Below are positions 1-14,631 of a stretch of DNA of 14,631 nucleotides, piece by piece. Location of the stretch: positions 1-14,631 of IMG/VR virus record IMGVR_UViG_2671180727_000007; one strand, written 5' to 3'. The stretch's first letter is position 1, and each line of letters begins with the position of its first letter. Below the pieces are notes generated by a model, which ran no database searches, was not told where the DNA came from, and saw only the letters and a list, made by a program, of their open reading frames with translations. Both the position numbers and the translations under genes were made by a program. This stretch comes from a virus (Duplodnaviria > Heunggongvirae > Uroviricota > Caudoviricetes).

Positions 1-98
<98 letters not shown>

Positions 99-129
99 TA
101 ATAAAGAAAACCCGCCTGTTGGCGGGTTT
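99..129 (-). terminator. Intrinsic terminator-like hairpin (stem AAACCCGCC / GGCGGGTTT, loop 117..120) with a T-rich tract on the minus strand; weaker on the plus strand
   Basis: 9-bp GC-rich inverted repeat at 108..116 and 121..129; minus-strand downstream sequence is TTTTCTTTATT. Sits immediately inside the left terminal repeat boundary. Confidence 0.45.
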
Positions 130-404
130 ATAAAGAATTATGGCGCTTGTTGAGGAAGTCACTCCTCTTACGCACTTTGTTTTGCCATGCCGGCAGTTAG
201 CTTCTGCCTTTGACTATTCATGCGGCAACCCCGCATTTCGCCACAATGGGCAATTCACTTTTATGGAATAAACTGGCCGTTGTGTCGATTTAATTAGCAT
301 GGCCTTACCATGCTAATTTATTCAACTTGTACAATCCTACAAATCTATCCACTCAGGCTTACACCGTCTTCGTTATTGTAGAAATGAGGATCATCAGCGT
401 TGAA

Positions 405-620
405 TCAGCTTAGAGCAACGACATTTGCTGCTGCTGGGCCTTTAGCCCCATTCTCGATAGAGAATTCGACCTGCTGGCCTTCTTCCAAAGTGCGGAAATT
501 ATTACTCTGAATTGCCGAAAAATGTACAAAAACATCTTTACTGCCATCAGCAGGAGAAATAAAGCCAAAGCCTTTATCAGAGTTAAACCATTTTACTAAA
601 CCAGTCATTTTATTAGACAT
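405..620 (-). CDS. CspA-family cold-shock protein (70 aa + stop)
   Basis: Translation [38 protein letters not shown]... carries the RNP1/RNP2-like motifs (KGFGFI, VFVHF) of the E. coli CspA/B/G/I family. Internal ATG at 618..620 is preceded by AAGAAGG 7 nt upstream; the 103-aa form in the ORF track is a leader read-through. Confidence 0.88.
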
Positions 621-835
621 AGATATTACCTTCTTAATTTTGTGAGCCACATAGTGCGGCGAGAATTTGATCTGTATAGATTGGGACTTACTTAGGCACT
701 TAAGGAGGAGACTCACGAAGAAGGGAAATCAGAAGATAACACTGAACTGAGACTGCTTTACTAAAACTGCTTACATAAGGTCTGTCTTGCAAACCAACGA
801 TGCTATTAACGCATACCCCTTCTTTTCATGCAACC
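621..835 (-). promoter_or_regulatory. csp promoter and long 5' leader with cold-box-like element
   Basis: On the minus strand: -35 TTGCAT (828..833), 18-nt spacer, -10 TTAATA (804..809), then a leader starting ~TTGGTTTGCAAGACAGACC (779..797) that resembles the cspA cold box as I recall it, giving a ~180-nt 5' UTR as in cold-shock genes. Confidence 0.55.
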
Positions 836-4903: not shown

Positions 4904-5977
4904 ATGGCAAAAGGAAAATCCGCACTGGCACTTGCTCTGAAAAAGAAAATCGGTAGCAACGACGAAATTCAGAAAGTAACTCATTGGATTGATACAGGCT
5001 TTCCACCGTTAAACAAAGCTATTTCTGGTCGTTACGATGGCGGCTTCCCATGTGGTCGTATCGTCGAAGTATTCGGTCCTCCAAGTGCAGGGAAAACGTT
5101 CCTTGCAACAGCAGCGATGATCTCCGCTCAAAAACAAGATGGTCTGGCGGTATTCCTCGATCATGAAAACAGTTTTGACGTTGGCCTGGCTGTCGCCAAT
5201 GGCCTGAACGCAGATGAGGATGACGGTCAGTGGGTATACAAGCAGCCAGATACCTTCGAAGACTCTGTAGAGTTGATCGGCACAATACTTAAATTGGTTC
5301 GTGATGAAGAGCTTATCCCCGAATCAGCACCAATCTGTATCGTGGCTGACTCTCTTGCGTCTATGGTTCCGAACTCCAAAGCCGAGAAGTTCGAAAAGAT
5401 GGCTGAAGGCACTGCCAAAGACAAAGATCAGCTAAACATGAACGACAATACGGCACTGGCTCGTGCGACGAGTGCGAACTTCCCTACTCTGGCTTTGTGG
5501 GCACGCAAATACAACGCCTGCATCATCTTCTTGAATCAGGTTCGCACAAAAATCGGTGTAATGTTTGGCGACCCTACTACGTCGCCAGGTGGAGATTCAC
5601 CGAAGTTCTACGCTTCTGTACGTATCCGTCTTGGTGCATCGGTGATGAAGGATGGTAAAGAGAAGATCGGCCAGGACGTAGGCGCAGAATGCATCAAAAA
5701 CAAAGTTGCACCACCGTATGGCAAATGCACCTGGAAATTCTACTTCGATCCTACTCGTGGCCTCGACGTTATCGAATCGCTCGTCGAGTACATGCTGGAA
5801 GAAGGATACCTGCCAAAGAACGCCAGCGGGCGAGTTGAAATTGGTGACAAGAAATACACCAAATCGCAGATCGTCGAGATGTATCGGGAGAAGCCACTGG
5901 CTGAAATCATTGCGGCTTTGCAGGCAATCGACGACCGAAGAGCAAAAGACAACCCCACCGAGTCAGTAGAAGAGTAA
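4904..5977 (+). CDS. RecA/UvsX-family recombinase
   Basis: Walker A GPPSAGKT (RecA: GPESSGKT), AVFLDHENSFD, Walker B-like ICIVADSLASM; GGAG SD 7 nt upstream of ATG. Confidence 0.8.
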   Translation: MAKGKSALALALKKKIGSNDEIQKVTHWIDTGFPPLNKAISGRYDGGFPCGRIVEVFGPPSAGKTFLATAAMISAQKQDGLAVFLDHENSFDVGLAVANGLNADEDDGQWVYKQPDTFEDSVELIGTILKLVRDEELIPESAPICIVADSLASMVPNSKAEKFEKMAEGTAKDKDQLNMNDNTALARATSANFPTLALWARKYNACIIFLNQVRTKIGVMFGDPTTSPGGDSPKFYASVRIRLGASVMKDGKEKIGQDVGAECIKNKVAPPYGKCTWKFYFDPTRGLDVIESLVEYMLEEGYLPKNASGRVEIGDKKYTKSQIVEMYREKPLAEIIAALQAIDDRRAKDNPTESVEE

Positions 5978-5982
5978 ACACA

Positions 5983-6006
5983 AGGCGTCCACAGGACGCC
6001 TTTTTT
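5983..6006 (+). terminator. Rho-independent terminator after the recombinase gene
   Basis: Stem AGGCGTCC (5983..5990), loop ACA, GGACGCCT (5994..6001), then TTTTTT. Confidence 0.75.
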
Positions 6007-6011
6007 ATCTC

Positions 6012-6040
6012 TTGAAAATATATAAGCACTTACTTATTAT
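6012..6040 (+). promoter_or_regulatory. Sigma70-like promoter TTGAAA-17 bp-TATTAT upstream of the membrane/SPFH operon
   Basis: -35 at 6012..6017, -10 at 6035..6040, 30 bp upstream of the ATG at 6070. Confidence 0.5.
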
Positions 6041-6069
6041 TTTCGCATAACAACCACATAGGAAAACAC

Positions 6070-6270
6070 ATGATCAAAATCTATCTATTGGCAGTAGCCA
6101 CAGGCCTTTCAGTGGCTCTCATCTACGGTTTACTGGTTCCGTCGCTGATTTCTACCAAGAGTGATTTAGCCGTCATGTTTGGAGTTATCGTTGGTTTTGG
6201 TGCTCCTGTAATCGGTCTTATTGCTGGTCGTAAGTTTATCAACTCACTAATCAAAGCAAAGGGGAAATAA
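6070..6270 (+). CDS. Small membrane protein with two predicted TM helices (66 aa)
   Basis: Two hydrophobic stretches (LLAVATGLSVALIYGLLV; VMFGVIVGFGAPVIGLIAG); AGGAAA SD; ends 3 nt before the SPFH gene. Confidence 0.55.
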   Translation: MIKIYLLAVATGLSVALIYGLLVPSLISTKSDLAVMFGVIVGFGAPVIGLIAGRKFINSLIKAKGK

Positions 6271-6273
6271 GTA

Positions 6274-7104
6274 ATGAAGAAAGGTTTACTTGCAGTTGCT
6301 CTGGCGGCTATTTGCACAATGGGTCTTACTGGCTGTGATCGCGTGGAGCCTGGATACGTTGGCATCAAAGTAAACAAATTAGGTGAAGACAAAGGGATTG
6401 GTGAAGTGGTTGGCGTTGGTCGCCAATGGACAGGTCTTAACACCGAACTTTACGTATTCCCGACCTTCAAACAAATGAAGACCTACGACGAGCCGTTCAC
6501 ATTCCAGATGAGTGACGGTACTGCTATTGGTCACAAAATTGGCGTTGCGTATCTGGTTAATCGTGACAAGGTAACGACGGTGTTCCAGACCTATCGCAAA
6601 GGCGTAGACGATATCACCGAATCAGATCTGCGTCAGAAAATTGCCGACTCTCTAAACCGTTTGGCCAGCCGTATGACCACTGACTCATTTATCGACGGTG
6701 GTAAGGCACAATTGCTGGACAACGCACTGAAAGATATTCAGAAAGAGATGTCTCCGGTTGGTATTGAGGTACTGAGCCTGTCATGGGTTGGAAAGCCTGA
6801 TTACCCAAAAACTGTCATTGAATCTATTAACGCCAAAGTAACGGCTAACCAGCGTACTCTGCAACGTCAGCAGGAAGTTGAACAACGTAAAGCTGAGGCG
6901 AATATGCTACGTGAACAGGCTAATGGTGAAGCTGATGCTATCCGTGCTCGTGCGCAAGCAGAAGCAGACGCCATTCGTCTGCGCGGTGAAGCTCTGCGTC
7001 AAAACCCGAACGTTATGGAACTGGAAGCCATCAATAAATGGAATGGCCAGTTACCGCAGTACATGACTCAAGGGGCTAACACTCCTTTCATTACAGTGAA
7101 ATAA
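6274..7104 (+). CDS. SPFH/band-7 (prohibitin/HflK-like) domain lipoprotein
   Basis: N-terminal signal peptide with lipobox LTGC; central SPFH-like region; C-terminal coiled coil with AEADAIR repeats typical of stomatin/HflKC proteins. Confidence 0.75.
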   Translation: MKKGLLAVALAAICTMGLTGCDRVEPGYVGIKVNKLGEDKGIGEVVGVGRQWTGLNTELYVFPTFKQMKTYDEPFTFQMSDGTAIGHKIGVAYLVNRDKVTTVFQTYRKGVDDITESDLRQKIADSLNRLASRMTTDSFIDGGKAQLLDNALKDIQKEMSPVGIEVLSLSWVGKPDYPKTVIESINAKVTANQRTLQRQQEVEQRKAEANMLREQANGEADAIRARAQAEADAIRLRGEALRQNPNVMELEAINKWNGQLPQYMTQGANTPFITVK

Positions 7105-7120
7105 CTCCCCTAAAAAGTTC

Positions 7121-7145
7121 AGGCGTCCAGTTGGACGCCTTTTTT
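7121..7145 (+). terminator. Rho-independent terminator after the SPFH gene
   Basis: Stem AGGCGTCC (7121..7128), loop AGTT, GGACGCCT (7133..7140), then TTTTT; same stem as the terminator at 5983. Confidence 0.75.
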
Positions 7146-7195
7146 ATCGCAATTATCTTATTAAGAAAACAATTTGTTTAAAAGGATAAGAAAAC

Positions 7196-7621
7196 ATGAC
7201 AGCTATTAAGAAACTCTACGATGCCGCAAACGTGGCTCTGGATGTTATTGATGATGAAGTAGCAAAAGGCTTTCCTGAACCTGATTGGGCGCATCAGCTA
7301 CGAAACGCTATCGCAGAAATGACCCCACCAGATCCAACCCCCGACGAGACAGACTGGCAGCGATTCATCCGTATGTACGCTCAGGAAATAGGTCCAACGC
7401 CAACGGCAGAGCAGGCAATGCTGCTGAAATACTTCAAAGAGGCGGGAGAGGATTTACCAATTGATGACTCAGCATATTGGTTCCACTGCGCATGGCGTAA
7501 GTATGACGTGATATTCACACAAGGCATGGGAAGCAAAGATATGGTTGTGTGGCATCTACTCCATATAGACACAGCCGTTGACAGAGTTATTGAACAGTTT
7601 TTCCCTAAACAAGAAGATTGA
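7196..7621 (+). CDS. Hypothetical acidic protein (141 aa)
   Basis: ORF with AGGA SD 8 nt upstream; Asp/Glu/Pro-rich; no recognisable family. Confidence 0.6.
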   Translation: MTAIKKLYDAANVALDVIDDEVAKGFPEPDWAHQLRNAIAEMTPPDPTPDETDWQRFIRMYAQEIGPTPTAEQAMLLKYFKEAGEDLPIDDSAYWFHCAWRKYDVIFTQGMGSKDMVVWHLLHIDTAVDRVIEQFFPKQED

Positions 7622-7676
7622 TCGCCTATTCATAACTAACAAAATAAGTAAACACTAACCACAAAAGGAAAAACAC

Positions 7677-7952
7677 ATGAGAGTTTTAGTTCGAATCGTT
7701 ACCAGCACTGTCTATGACGTGTTTCCGCTTTTTATGGTCAAAGCCGATGGCCTTAACGACGAAGAAACTGACGCGCTGATCCAGCGTATTCTCGTTGAAT
7801 ATACAGGTCATGACGCTGATTCAGTGATGGTTGATGATGATGGTGTTTGTTGGCATAACGGCAACTGTTGGTACGTAGAAGAGACTCAACAAATCAGTGA
7901 TGAAGATGCCGAACATCTTGAGCGTATTTTAAGCATCAGCACTTTTGAGTGA
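7677..7952 (+). CDS. Hypothetical highly acidic small protein (91 aa)
   Basis: ORF preceded by the conserved AAGGAAAAACACATG initiation context; roughly 24% Asp+Glu. Confidence 0.55.
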   Translation: MRVLVRIVTSTVYDVFPLFMVKADGLNDEETDALIQRILVEYTGHDADSVMVDDDGVCWHNGNCWYVEETQQISDEDAEHLERILSISTFE

Positions 7953-7991
7953 GTTTACAGTAAAATTTATATAAGTTAGTATCTACCTATC

Positions 7992-8171
7992 ATGAAGATT
8001 TTTATTGAATACTTGTTACTCATCGTTTCAATAGCTTTTGTCATCGACTGCATTTTCACTGGTGTCATTCGTAAAGTCTTTTCCCCGGTGCACGACGTAG
8101 TCATAAACGCTTTGGCTATCGTGCTCGTATTTAATTCAGCATTTGATGTAATCAAAGAGGTGGCAGCATGA
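7992..8171 (+). CDS. Putative small hydrophobic membrane protein (59 aa), below the ORF-track size cut-off
   Basis: My own translation: MKIFIEYLLLIVSIAFVIDCIFTGVIRKVFSPVHDVVINALAIVLVFNSAFDVIKEVAA; stop overlaps the next ATG (ATGA). No clear SD. Confidence 0.4.
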   Translation: MKIFIEYLLLIVSIAFVIDCIFTGVIRKVFSPVHDVVINALAIVLVFNSAFDVIKEVAA

Positions 8172-8503
8172 AGGCCATCCCATTCGCGCTGTTGTTCCTT
8201 TCTTCGATCGTTGTGGCCGACACCACTGTTTATCAGTGTGAAATGTCTGTAGCCGACGTTAAGAATGGCGCTCTTACCGACGTCATAAAAGCACCATATG
8301 GAGCGATGGTCGTAGACAGCGGCGACCAGTTCTATGTTGTGCGTGACGATCGAGTGTTGTCATCCCCATATCTCACAAATCGTAATGGCAAATTAACCGG
8401 CGTCGGAGAAGACCACTTCGTATACAACAAATACAAGGGCTTCTATGGCGTTCACGCTTCTCAGCAAAGCTACCTTTTCGATGACTGCAAGGAGGTTGGA
8501 TAA
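8168..8503 (+). CDS. Hypothetical secreted protein (111 aa) with N-terminal signal peptide
   Basis: MKAIPFALLFLSSIVVA-DTT has a signal-peptide profile; GAGG SD upstream. Confidence 0.6.
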   Translation: MKAIPFALLFLSSIVVADTTVYQCEMSVADVKNGALTDVIKAPYGAMVVDSGDQFYVVRDDRVLSSPYLTNRNGKLTGVGEDHFVYNKYKGFYGVHASQQSYLFDDCKEVG

Positions 8504-8715
8504 TGGCATTAACACTGGCAGGTCTGGAAATCGAGAAAACAAGCGGCTACTGGCGTGCTAAGGGTTTCAAGCAGCCTGGCATTCTTGAGCGTCTGGAACG
8601 TGAAGATGGGTATATCGTCCACCAGCGGCGTGAATGGCGTATGTACGATCCAGAAACAGGAAAACTGACTACAAAAGCCGGAACACTTTGGGGTCTGTTG
8701 AAGAAAATACACTAA
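8503..8715 (+). CDS. Hypothetical protein (70 aa), translationally coupled
   Basis: ATG overlaps the previous stop (TAATG); AGGAGG SD 9 nt upstream. Confidence 0.5.
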   Translation: MALTLAGLEIEKTSGYWRAKGFKQPGILERLEREDGYIVHQRREWRMYDPETGKLTTKAGTLWGLLKKIH

Positions 8716-8722
8716 TAGCACC

Positions 8723-9205
8723 AACCACTGCGGTGAGTAGTCTACTCACCGCATTCGTATCCAGCTCATTATCCACTGTAGTCAGTAACAAAACCTTCCT
8801 ACATATCTGCTAACCACTGTAGCGAGTAGACAGCCTTTCATTCGCATCAAACAACCACTATGGTGAGTATTGGAGTGAGATGTCCAGCGGGTATCCACTA
8901 TGGTGAGTAAGCCTTTGCTGTTTTCAGTGGATATCCACTCGCCACAGTGGATACGCTCAAAGATGAGGGCGACAACAACCACTATAGACAGTAAATTTTC
9001 CAAGATACCCAGTGACCACTAACCTCGCAGCCCTTGTTTCATCAGTGTTAGTGATCACTAACATTTAATTCAGTATTTGCATTCTACTGCCTACAGTGGT
9101 TATCAACAGATAACGATACTCACTATAGTGGATAGCGAATTACAGATATAAGTAAGGCTCACTACAGTGGATAGTGAGCCTTACTACTAACTACAGTGGT
9201 TGGGC
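8723..9205. repeat. Iteron array downstream of repA (incA-like control locus): about 8 copies of core AACCACTNTRGTGAGTA at ~40-bp spacing, then 4 copies in the opposite orientation (CTAYAGTGGWT), around a 16-bp perfect palindrome GTTAGTGATCACTAAC (9047..9062)
   Basis: CCACT cores at 8725, 8773, 8814, 8856, 8895, 8935, 8979, 9016; AGTGG cores at 9095, 9127, 9166, 9195; the same core as the upstream iterons. Confidence 0.8.
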
Positions 9206-10260: not shown

Positions 10261-10305
10261 TCCAAATGTCTCTTGTTATTCGACGGCTTTGGTGGCCTTT
10301 GCTGA

Positions 10306-10428
10306 TTACAGTGGATAGTAGCACTCATCACAGCGGTTATCCTACCGTCTATAGTGGTTTTTCTCCTCTCTATAGTGGTTGCTTTGCTCCCTATAGTGGA
10401 TTATTCGCTCTCTATAGTGGATATCGAT
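10306..10428. repeat. Origin-proximal iteron array: six tandem ~21-bp direct repeats (consensus CTCTATAGTGGWT...)
   Basis: TATAGTGG at 10350, 10371, 10392, 10413 (exact 21-bp period), plus ACAGTGG at 10308 and ACAGCGG at 10331. Confidence 0.85.
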
Positions 10429-10699: not shown

Positions 10700-10810
10700 C
10701 TACTCTCTACAGTGGATATATACAGCTCTCCAGAGTGGTTGTTTTACTCTTCATAGCGGTTATTCAGCTCTCTACAGAGGTTTCTTTGCTCTCCATAGTG
10801 GATGGCAACA
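10700..10810. repeat. Second iteron array: five ~21-bp direct repeats, more degenerate
   Basis: CTCTACAGTGGATATATACAG, CTCTCCAGAGTGGTTGTTTTAC, TCTTCATAGCGGTTATTCAG, CTCTCTACAGAGGTTTCTTTG, CTCTCCATAGTGGATGGCAAC. Confidence 0.75.

Positions 10811-13222: not shown

Positions 13223-14631
<1,409 letters not shown>

What the first reader, a model, noticed from the sequence alone, without database searches (positions are those of the whole stretch)
7196..7952. Two consecutive acidic small proteins (141 aa and 91 aa) - candidate DNA mimics or anti-defense factors
Both ORFs are strongly Asp/Glu-rich (the 91-aa protein about one quarter acidic, with runs such as DDDG and SDEDAEH). Small acidic proteins on phages and plasmids are frequently DNA mimics that inhibit restriction enzymes or other DNA-binding defense proteins. 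They have no recognisable domain and sit between the SPFH operon and the replicon.
Basis: inference. Interest (0 to 1): 0.5.

Follow-up and report, generated by a model that had tools for sequence, protein, structure and literature searches.

The report
Two acidic phage-plasmid accessory proteins
Two small acidic genes next to the replication origin of an SSU5-like E. coli phage-plasmid are real, conserved, silent-in-lysogeny accessory genes of unknown function; only the 91-aa one keeps its strong negative charge across relatives and so stays an untested candidate DNA-mimic or anti-defence protein.

Summary
Both ORFs exist as described: A141 at 7196-7621 and B91 at 7677-7952. Both have Shine-Dalgarno sites and are under purifying selection.

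The window is part of an SSU5-like phage-plasmid of E. coli, about 99.9% identical to many ~110 kb plasmids. It is bounded by inverted IS100 ends.

**A141** does have a recognisable domain, contrary to the finding: Pfam DUF7238 (E=5e-38).
- Its core occurs as a stand-alone early-gene product in over 400 enterobacterial phage records.
- Family net charge runs from +4 to -14, and most members are only mildly acidic.
- Most of A141's excess charge sits in a lineage-specific N-terminal extension.
- DNA mimicry is therefore not supported for A141.

**B91** is an ORFan family confined to SSU5-supergroup phage-plasmids, including pMT1 of Y. pestis and pHCM2 of S. Typhi.
- It is the most acidic of 122 proteins in the near-identical phage Cyrano.
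- 11 of its 20 acidic positions stay acidic down to about 40% identity.
- That fits a polyanionic decoy, but nothing shows it. The structure model is poor (pLDDT 56), and no sequence or fold match to any solved mimic was found.

Both genes are near-silent in a published lysogen transcriptome, and most Klebsiella relatives have lost them. They are dispensable lytic or entry-phase accessory genes. Interest is modest.

The parts
7121..7147 (+). Intrinsic terminator after the SPFH gene. It separates the SPFH pair from A141.
   Evidence: stem AGGCGTCC-AGTT-GGACGCCT followed by TTTTTTAT. A near-identical hairpin follows the RecA-like gene at 5982-6002.
7182..7186 (+). Shine-Dalgarno-like AAGGA for A141.
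   Evidence: Read; lies 9 nt upstream of the ATG at 7196.
7196..7621 (+). A141, a 141-aa DUF7238-family protein (orthologues: CYRAN_58, SSU5_064, pMT1 WP_002222869).
   Evidence: ORF. Pfam PF23885 E=5e-38 and phrog_1451 E=5e-51. Purifying selection. All-helical AF2 model, pLDDT 73.
7196..7357 (+). A141 residues 1-54: two N-terminal helices plus a Pro/Asp/Glu-rich linker. This extension is acidic (net -8) and specific to SSU5-type versions.
   Evidence: phrog_21166 matches residues 4-51. Only residues 4-40 survive, as a 58-66 aa remnant ORF, in Klebsiella relatives. Charge split.
7358..7618 (+). A141 residues 55-141: the conserved DUF7238 core (net -5). Invariant residues are Y61, G84, P88, R101, D115, W119, L121 and D125.
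   Evidence: Alignment A3 with homologues from Krischvirus, Vequintavirus and Slopekvirus phages and a Serratia prophage. tblastn finds it in 423 phage records.
7644..7655 (+). One copy of the genome-wide intergenic motif ATAAGTAAGTAC (here ATAAGTAAACAC), 22 nt upstream of the B91 start. Possible promoter or operator element.
   Evidence: 7 sites in the window against 0.95 expected, with 0 of 200 shuffles reaching 7; 25 of 35 sites in Cyrano lie in the 13% of the genome that is intergenic.
7665..7669 (+). Shine-Dalgarno-like AAGGA for B91.
   Evidence: Read; lies 7 nt upstream of the ATG at 7677.
7677..7952 (+). B91, a 91-aa strongly acidic ORFan protein (phrog_2209; orthologues CYRAN_59, SSU5_065, pMT1 WP_002228797).
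   Evidence: ORF. phrog_2209 E=1e-56. Only 13 clusters among 1.84 billion representatives. Found in 507 plasmids and 6 phage records. Conserved acidity. dN/dS about 0.08-0.09.

Best explanation
These are two unrelated, independently inherited accessory genes of an SSU5-like (pSLy3/Cyrano-type) E. coli phage-plasmid. They belong to the gene set that is kept off in the plasmid (lysogenic) state.

**A141** is a DUF7238 protein: a compact helical domain that many virulent and temperate enterobacterial phages encode as a stand-alone early-region product. Here it carries an extra acidic N-terminal extension. I infer that it works by binding a protein partner common to Enterobacterales or their phages, not by imitating DNA.

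**B91** is a lineage-restricted protein, probably of mixed alpha/beta fold, whose polyanionic character is itself under selection. The mechanism I commit to for B91 is a stoichiometric decoy. Its carboxylate-rich surface would occupy the nucleic-acid-binding surface of a DNA-binding enzyme or protein (a restriction or RecBCD-type nuclease, or a nucleoid protein) when phage DNA enters or replicates.

**Shown:**
- gene reality
- family membership
- distribution
- dispensability
- conserved charge in B91 and non-conserved charge in A141
- silence in lysogeny

**Inferred only:**
- the protein-binding role of A141 (about 0.4)
- the decoy mechanism of B91 (about 0.2-0.25)
For: **Element identity**
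- 97.8% identical to phage Cyrano, 99.9% to about 110 kb E. coli plasmids, and syntenic with SSU5.

**Real genes**
- dN about 0.17 with saturated dS.

**A141**
- Pfam DUF7238 and phrog_1451.
- The core is present in 423 phage records as 100-117 aa single-domain proteins inside arrays of small early ORFs.
- In a Serratia lambdoid prophage it lies between GamL/exonuclease and the integrase.
- Charge is not conserved.

**B91**
- The family is tiny.
- Net charge is -10 to -16 in every member.
- 11 of 20 acidic positions are conserved, in clusters at residues 24-30, 46-48, 53-55, 68-69 and 75-77.
- It is the most acidic of 122 Cyrano proteins.
- Its protein sequence evolves about 4 times faster than the neighbouring SPFH and Cra-like genes (dN 0.18 against 0.04).

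**Expression**
- The Cyrano orthologues CYRAN_58 and CYRAN_59 sit at or near the detection floor in LF82 lysogen RNA-seq. Values are log2(5+fpkm) 2.3-4.2 and 2.9-5.7, against 6.6-8.3 for repA (PMC9928086 S1 Table).
- Neither is among the moron genes of that paper's Table 1.

**Dispensability**
- Most Klebsiella pKpn-type relatives keep only an N-terminal remnant of A141 and lack B91.
Against: **No direct evidence of any activity.**

**B91**
- Charge density (-0.165 per residue; 20 acidic and 5 basic of 91) is lower than that of Ocr (34 acidic and 6 basic of 116; PMC4872106 abstract).
- Acidic small proteins are common in this genome: 10 of 50.
- No known anti-defence or defence gene lies beside it.
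- Profile searches of all PDB sequences give nothing better than E=0.07, to an acyl carrier protein.

**A141**
- No partner, motif or fold match supports any specific role.

**Expression**
- Low expression in lysogens also fits many other lytic-cycle roles.
Confidence: 0.3

Rival explanations
1. One reading: both proteins are DNA mimics or anti-restriction factors that together block restriction enzymes or other DNA-binding defence proteins on entry.
For: - Both are acidic and small.
- Both lie on a mobile element that must establish itself in new hosts.
- They are off in the established lysogen, as expected for entry-phase functions.
- A distant DUF7238 homologue sits about 3.5 kb from a weak Lar-like (restriction alleviation) hit.
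Against: - A141's family does not conserve the charge.
- The two genes are unrelated and not co-inherited.
- There is no sequence or fold similarity to Ocr, ArdA, Arn, Ugi, Gam or any anti-CRISPR in the PDB.
- DefenseFinder-type surveys do not flag them.
Confidence: 0.08
2. B91 (and possibly A141) is an accessory subunit or regulator of the element's own T4-like recombination and replication machinery. An acidic partner would bind the basic surfaces of the phage's gp32-like SSB, UvsY-like mediator, RecA-like recombinase or SbcCD-like nuclease, rather than act against the host.
For: - The genes are embedded between UvsY-like, gp32-like, 5'-3' exonuclease and RecA-like genes on one side and RepA and SbcCD-like genes on the other.
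- The Serratia DUF7238 homologue lies in the same operon as GamL and a PD-(D/E)XK exonuclease.
- Their expression level resembles that of the neighbouring recombination genes.
Against: - Klebsiella relatives keep the recombination genes but lose B91 and most of A141.
- B91 is absent from every other phage that carries the same recombination genes.
- DUF7238 neighbours in virulent phages are unrelated small ORFs.
Confidence: 0.15
3. They are ordinary, weakly constrained phage filler genes. Their acidity reflects solubility and composition of small cytoplasmic phage proteins and has no mechanistic meaning. Any function is unrelated to charge.
For: - 20% of the small proteins of this genome are equally acidic.
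- Both genes are dispensable in a whole sub-lineage.
- They evolve faster than their neighbours.
- No database gives them any function.
Against: - dN/dS is below 0.1 across Escherichia, Salmonella and Yersinia versions.
- B91 keeps 11 acidic positions and a net charge of -10 or lower down to 39% identity, while the rest of the sequence diverges. This indicates selection on the charge itself.
- The DUF7238 core is retained across very different phage lineages.
Confidence: 0.3

Closest known systems
Pfam DUF7238 (PF23885) / PHROG 1451, an uncharacterised phage protein family
   Same: A141 matches almost the full profile (positions 2-111 of 112, 130 bits). It shares the invariant core residues with homologues from Krischvirus GEC-3S, Vequintavirus Murica, Slopekvirus KP15 and a Serratia prophage.
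   Different: A141 and its SSU5, pHCM2 and pMT1 orthologues are longer (136-141 aa against 89-117 aa). They carry an acidic N-terminal extension with a Pro/Asp/Glu linker, which accounts for most of the extra charge. The family has no known function.
T7 Ocr (gp0.3) and ArdA, DNA-mimic anti-restriction proteins
   Same: - Small, cytoplasmic and strongly acidic.
- Encoded on a mobile element and not expressed in the established lysogen.
- For B91, acidic residues are conserved across homologues, as reported for ArdA (PMC2731889).
   Different: - No sequence or fold similarity.
- Lower charge density than Ocr, which has 34 acidic and 6 basic residues of 116.
- Predicted mixed beta/alpha topology for B91, rather than Ocr's helical bundle or ArdA's three-domain rod.
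- No evidence of a dimer or of a helical ribbon of carboxylates.
- No functional data.
Lambda Gam / GamL and T7 gp5.9, RecBCD-inhibiting acidic decoys (recalled from general knowledge)
   Same: Small acidic phage proteins encoded next to recombination genes. A DUF7238 homologue lies in the same operon as a GamL gene in a Serratia prophage. The window's element relies on its own recombination genes.
   Different: No homology of A141 or B91 to Gam or GamL (Pfam negative; PDB negative). In the Serratia prophage GamL is a separate gene, so DUF7238 is not its replacement there.
PHROG 2209
   Same: B91 matches end to end (1-91 of 91, E=1e-56).
   Different: The family is unannotated and confined to SSU5-supergroup phage-plasmids.

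Membership tests
Pfam DUF7238 (PF23885) | Score above the curated gathering threshold, with near full-length profile coverage. | tested here: met
   A141 scores 130 bits against a cut-off of 27, covering profile positions 2-111 of 112. All 57 relatives found carry only this domain.
PHROG 2209 | Significant full-length match to the family profile. | tested here: met
   B91: E=1.3e-56, positions 1-91 of 91.
DNA-mimic proteins (Ocr/ArdA type) | Very high excess of acidic over basic residues (Ocr: 34 acidic and 6 basic of 116). | tested here: inconclusive
   B91 has 20 acidic and 5 basic residues of 91 (net -15, pI 4.1) and is the most acidic of 122 proteins in Cyrano, but it is less dense than Ocr. 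A141 has 26 acidic and 13 basic of 141 and ranks 9th of 122.
DNA-mimic proteins (Ocr/ArdA type) | Acidic residues and overall charge conserved across homologues. | tested here: met
   This holds for B91 only: 11 of 20 acidic positions are at least 80% acidic, and net charge is -10 to -16 down to 39% identity.
DNA-mimic proteins (Ocr/ArdA type) | Acidic residues and overall charge conserved across homologues (A141). | tested here: not met
   DUF7238 members range from net +4 to -14, most between -2 and -6. Eight of A141's 13 net negative charges lie in the lineage-specific N-terminal 54 residues.
DNA-mimic proteins (Ocr/ArdA type) | Surface carboxylates arranged so that they superimpose on the phosphate backbone of B-form DNA, usually across a dimer. 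| not testable with these tools
   The B91 model is unreliable (pLDDT 56).
DNA-mimic proteins (Ocr/ArdA type) | Binds and inhibits a DNA-binding enzyme in competition with DNA. | not testable with these tools
   Needs experiment.
Any solved anti-restriction, anti-CRISPR or DNA-mimic protein (homology) | Detectable sequence or fold similarity to a solved member. | tested here: not met
   - Profile searches of all PDB sequences give a best E of 0.07-0.6, to unrelated proteins.
- Mimics are not one homologous family, so this does not exclude the mechanism.
Known defence-system components (PADLOC) and NCBIfam named families | HMM match. | tested here: not met
   No hit for either protein at E up to 1.

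The most novel reading that the evidence does not exclude
B91 would found a new, lineage-restricted family of polyanionic decoy (DNA-mimic-like) inhibitors carried by SSU5-supergroup phage-plasmids, including pMT1 of Yersinia pestis and pHCM2 of Salmonella Typhi. It would neutralise a host nuclease or defence system at entry or induction. The widespread DUF7238 family (A141) would be a separate, uncharacterised host-targeting early protein of enterobacterial phages.
Probability: 0.2. Interest if true: 0.55.

Novelty: new member of a known kind. Interest (0 to 1): 0.27.

Why it matters
SSU5-like phage-plasmids are common in clinical E. coli, Shigella, Salmonella Typhi (pHCM2) and Yersinia pestis (pMT1). 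Surveys find almost no recognisable anti-defence genes in them.

If B91 were shown to be a decoy inhibitor, it would add a new anti-defence family and help explain how these elements establish in new hosts. If DUF7238 were given a function, that would annotate a gene present in hundreds of T4-like, rV5-like and other therapeutic-candidate phages.

As it stands, the result mainly narrows the candidate list from two to one. It also corrects the annotation: A141 is DUF7238, and its acidity is not a family trait.

Tried and rejected
- **Homology to solved proteins.** Profile searches of the PDB with alignments A1-A4 gave nothing below E=0.07.
- **Fold searches.**
  - Foldseek against BFVD for A141 found only its own relatives.
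  - The afdb50 library was unavailable.
- **Defence and naming libraries.** PADLOC and NCBIfam gave no hits.
- **Domain fusions.** I looked for fusions that could hint at function. All 57 DUF7238 relatives are short and single-domain. The long 'hits' to B91 (P0078, P0082, P0084) are repetitive acidic proteins and were judged compositional.
- **A functional A141-B91 pair** (toxin-antitoxin-like or a complex). Rejected, because each occurs without the other and they share no similarity.
- **A conserved NinX-DUF7238 module.** The two are adjacent, with overlapping coding regions, in SSU5, pMT1 and a Serratia prophage. NinX is absent from the window and from the neighbourhood in virulent phages, so this was not pursued.
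- **A zinc site or disulfide in B91** (C58, C64, H80). Rejected, because these residues are replaced in several members.
- **Paralogy with the other very acidic small proteins of Cyrano.** None found.
- **Literature.** No paper mentions DUF7238, PF23885 or the SSU5 locus tags. The only mention of an orthologue is one peptide of the pMT1 A141 orthologue in a plague palaeoproteome (PMC5528255), which is weak evidence of expression.
- **Non-coding RNA.** Rfam finds none in the region.

Full report
**What the window is**

The 14.6 kb window is a segment of an SSU5-like phage-plasmid of E. coli.
- Positions 6000-9200 are 99.9% identical to many ~110 kb non-mobilizable E. coli plasmids. They are 97.8% identical to phage Cyrano (pLF82) and about 76% to Salmonella phage SSU5.
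- The gene order matches the Cyrano annotation:
  - HicBA
  - a UvsY-like gene
  - a gp32-like SSB
  - a 5'-3' exonuclease
  - a RecA-like gene
  - a 66-aa membrane protein
  - an SPFH lipoprotein
  - the two ORFs of the finding
  - three more small genes (a membrane protein, a secreted protein and a P1 Cra-like protein)
  - repA on the opposite strand, flanked by iterons
  - an ASCH-like gene
  - SbcD-like and SbcC-like genes
- The two ends of the window are 102-nt inverted copies of IS100. The window is therefore probably a contig bounded by repeated insertion sequences. The right-hand copy truncates the SbcC-like gene.

**The observation**

Each has an AAGGA ribosome-binding site.
- A terminator (7121-7140) separates them from the SPFH gene.
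- Composition:

| Protein | Asp+Glu | Net charge | pI |
|---|---|---|---|
| A141 | 18.4% | -13 | 4.5 |
| B91 | 22.0% | -15 | 4.1 |

- Both are real genes. Against the SSU5 and pMT1 orthologues, amino-acid identity is about 75% and dN about 0.17-0.18, while synonymous sites are saturated. This gives dN/dS below 0.1.
- Their protein sequences change about four times faster than the neighbouring SPFH and Cra-like genes (dN 0.04).
- The statement that neither has a recognisable domain is wrong for A141. It is a clear member of Pfam DUF7238 and of phrog_1451. B91 has no Pfam domain but matches phrog_2209 end to end.

**How unusual the acidity is**

I computed charge for 122 annotated proteins of Cyrano.
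- The B91 orthologue is the single most acidic protein, both by net charge per residue (-0.165) and by pI.
- The A141 orthologue ranks 9th and 12th.
- Ten of the 50 proteins of 150 residues or fewer have pI below 4.6.

'Small and acidic' is therefore common in this genome. Only B91 stands out.

**A141**

- *Distribution.*
  - tblastn finds the C-terminal about 85 residues in 423 phage records. These are mostly virulent myoviruses of Escherichia, Klebsiella, Enterobacter, Cronobacter and Salmonella, including Krischvirus, Vequintavirus, Slopekvirus and Ackermannviridae-like phages.
  - There the homologue is a 100-117 aa hypothetical protein inside long arrays of small early or middle ORFs.
- *Domain architecture.* A profile search recovered 57 relatives. 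All are short and carry only DUF7238, so no fusion hints at function.
- *Temperate contexts.*
  - In a Serratia lambdoid prophage, the 89-aa homologue lies between GamL plus a PD-(D/E)XK exonuclease and the integrase, directly after a NinX gene.
  - NinX also precedes the gene in SSU5 and pMT1. It does not do so in the window or in virulent phages.
- *Charge.*
  - Family net charge runs from +4 to -14, and most members are -2 to -6.
  - In A141 the conserved core is only -5. The lineage-specific N-terminal 54 residues, including a PPDPTPDETD linker, contribute -8.
It is a member of a widespread, uncharacterised early-gene family.

**B91**

- *Distribution.*
  - The family is tiny. A full HMMER scan of 1.84 billion cluster representatives finds 13 clusters, several of them fragments or compositional matches.
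  - tblastn finds it in 507 plasmids and 6 phage records, all SSU5-supergroup elements. These include Y. pestis pMT1, S. Typhi-type pHCM2, and Enterobacter, Citrobacter and Cronobacter plasmids. Only 44 Klebsiella plasmids carry it.
- *Charge.*
  - Every member has net charge -10 to -16.
  - Across 11 members down to 39% identity, 11 of the 20 acidic positions stay acidic in at least 80% of sequences. They cluster at residues 24-30, 46-48, 53-55, 68-69 and 75-77.
  - The invariant residues are M1, L4, S10, P17, G44, D53, V57, W65, Y66, E76, D77, L81, R83 and L85.
  - The charge itself therefore appears to be selected.
- *Homology.* No solved protein, including all deposited DNA mimics and anti-CRISPRs, is detectably related by sequence.

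**Are they a pair?**

No.
- They share no similarity.
- The A141 core occurs without B91 in hundreds of phages.
- A Klebsiella phage-plasmid has B91 (42% identity) without A141.
- Most Klebsiella pKpn-type relatives retain only the first about 40 residues of A141, as a 58-66 aa remnant, and have no B91.

Both are therefore dispensable 'shell' genes. They sit in a moderately variable slot between the SPFH gene and the Cra-like gene. The other occupants of that slot (NinX and three PHROG families of unknown function) give no functional clue.

**Expression**

The evidence comes from the published LF82 transcriptome (PMC9928086).
- The Cyrano orthologues CYRAN_58 and CYRAN_59 are at or near the detection floor in LB. 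They stay low in medium and in macrophages, at log2(5+fpkm) 2.3-4.2 and 2.9-5.7.
- repA is at 6.6-8.3.
- The three downstream genes CYRAN_60 to CYRAN_62 rise to about 8-9 in macrophages.
- Neither CYRAN_58 nor CYRAN_59 is in that paper's list of lysogeny-expressed morons.
- A141 and B91 thus behave like the neighbouring lytic recombination genes and are transcriptionally separate from the genes after them.
- A promoter-like site and a copy of a genome-wide intergenic motif precede the downstream gene. Another copy of the motif lies 22 nt before B91.

**Interpretation**

- *Securely shown:* two unrelated, conserved, non-essential genes that are repressed in lysogeny.
- *A141:* I infer a protein-binding early function, not mimicry.
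- *B91:* the most economical mechanism that uses its one distinctive and conserved property is a polyanionic decoy for a nucleic-acid-binding protein. I give this about 0.2-0.25.
- *Rivals:*
  - a partner of the element's own recombination proteins (about 0.15)
  - charge without mechanistic meaning (about 0.3)
[quoted passage not shown] B91 is not a member of any catalogued anti-defence family.

**Verdict**

- A specialist would not be surprised by small acidic hypothetical proteins in a phage-plasmid.
- The value of the work is a cleaner candidate (B91, conserved in pMT1 and pHCM2) and a better description of DUF7238.
- Interest is about 0.27.

Noticed in passing
window 4-105 and 14530-14631: The two ends of the window are 102-nt inverted copies (99% complementary) of an IS21-family IS100 element. 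The right copy truncates the SbcC-like gene, which is 463 aa here against 638 aa in phage Cyrano. The window looks like a contig bounded by repeated IS copies.
   Followed up: partly
window 684, 2033, 2498, 6026, 7644, 7971, 11780; Cyrano loci L010/L001/L011: The motif ATA(A/G)GTAAGTAC often forms part of a palindrome, ATAAGTAAGTACTTACTTAT. The window has 7 sites against 0.95 expected, and 0 of 200 shuffles reach 7. In Cyrano, 25 of 35 sites fall in the 13% of the genome that is intergenic, across both the structural and the early modules. It may be a genome-wide promoter or repressor-operator motif of SSU5-like phage-plasmids, by analogy with the dispersed C1 operators of P1.
   Followed up: partly
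window 8720-9201, 10301-10427, 10700-10808: RepA iterons (core CTATAGTGG / ACAGTGGATA) lie on both sides of repA. Tandem 21-bp-spaced copies are upstream, and dispersed copies, some inverted, are downstream. This is a P1/F-like layout of origin plus copy-control locus.
   Followed up: no
window 4904-5977; L001 4638-6977; L006 15-2330: The RecA-like gene is intein-free here (357 aa). In phage Cyrano (779 aa) and a Klebsiella relative (771 aa) it carries a LAGLIDADG intein, inserted in the Walker A region after GPPSAGK.
   Followed up: no
window 380-798 (- strand): A full-length cspA thermoregulator 5' UTR (Rfam RF01766, 186 bits) precedes a cold-shock protein gene next to the left IS100 end. 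This is a host-like cold-shock cassette carried on the phage-plasmid.
   Followed up: no
window 5982-6002 and 7121-7140: Nearly identical terminator hairpins (AAGGCGTCC...GGACGCCTT plus a T-run) follow the RecA-like gene and the SPFH gene.
   Followed up: no
window 7992-8715 (orthologues CYRAN_60 to CYRAN_62): The three genes downstream of B91 (a 59-aa membrane protein, a 111-aa secreted protein and a 70-aa P1 Cra-like protein) have their own promoter-like site at 7954-7993. In published data their Cyrano orthologues rise from the detection floor to log2 about 8-9 in LF82 inside macrophages, unlike A141 and B91.
   Followed up: partly
L002 5499-6264; L009 3646-4411; L012 5621-6270: A NinX (DUF2591) gene immediately precedes the DUF7238 gene, and their coding regions overlap, in SSU5, pMT1 and an unrelated Serratia lambdoid prophage. 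NinX is missing from the window and from virulent phages.
   Followed up: partly
Cyrano CYRAN_95, 101, 105, 110 (L011 27009-27194, 33191-33490, 35805-36155, 37903-38253): Four other small proteins of the same element are almost as acidic as B91 (pI 4.2-4.35). They are unrelated to it in sequence. If acidity is the criterion, they are equally good candidates.
   Followed up: no
pMT1 orthologue of A141 (WP_002222869; L009 4001-4411): A palaeoproteomics study of 300-year-old plague dental pulp lists a peptide assigned to this protein (PMC5528255). This is weak, single-peptide evidence that the Y. pestis orthologue is made.
   Followed up: partly
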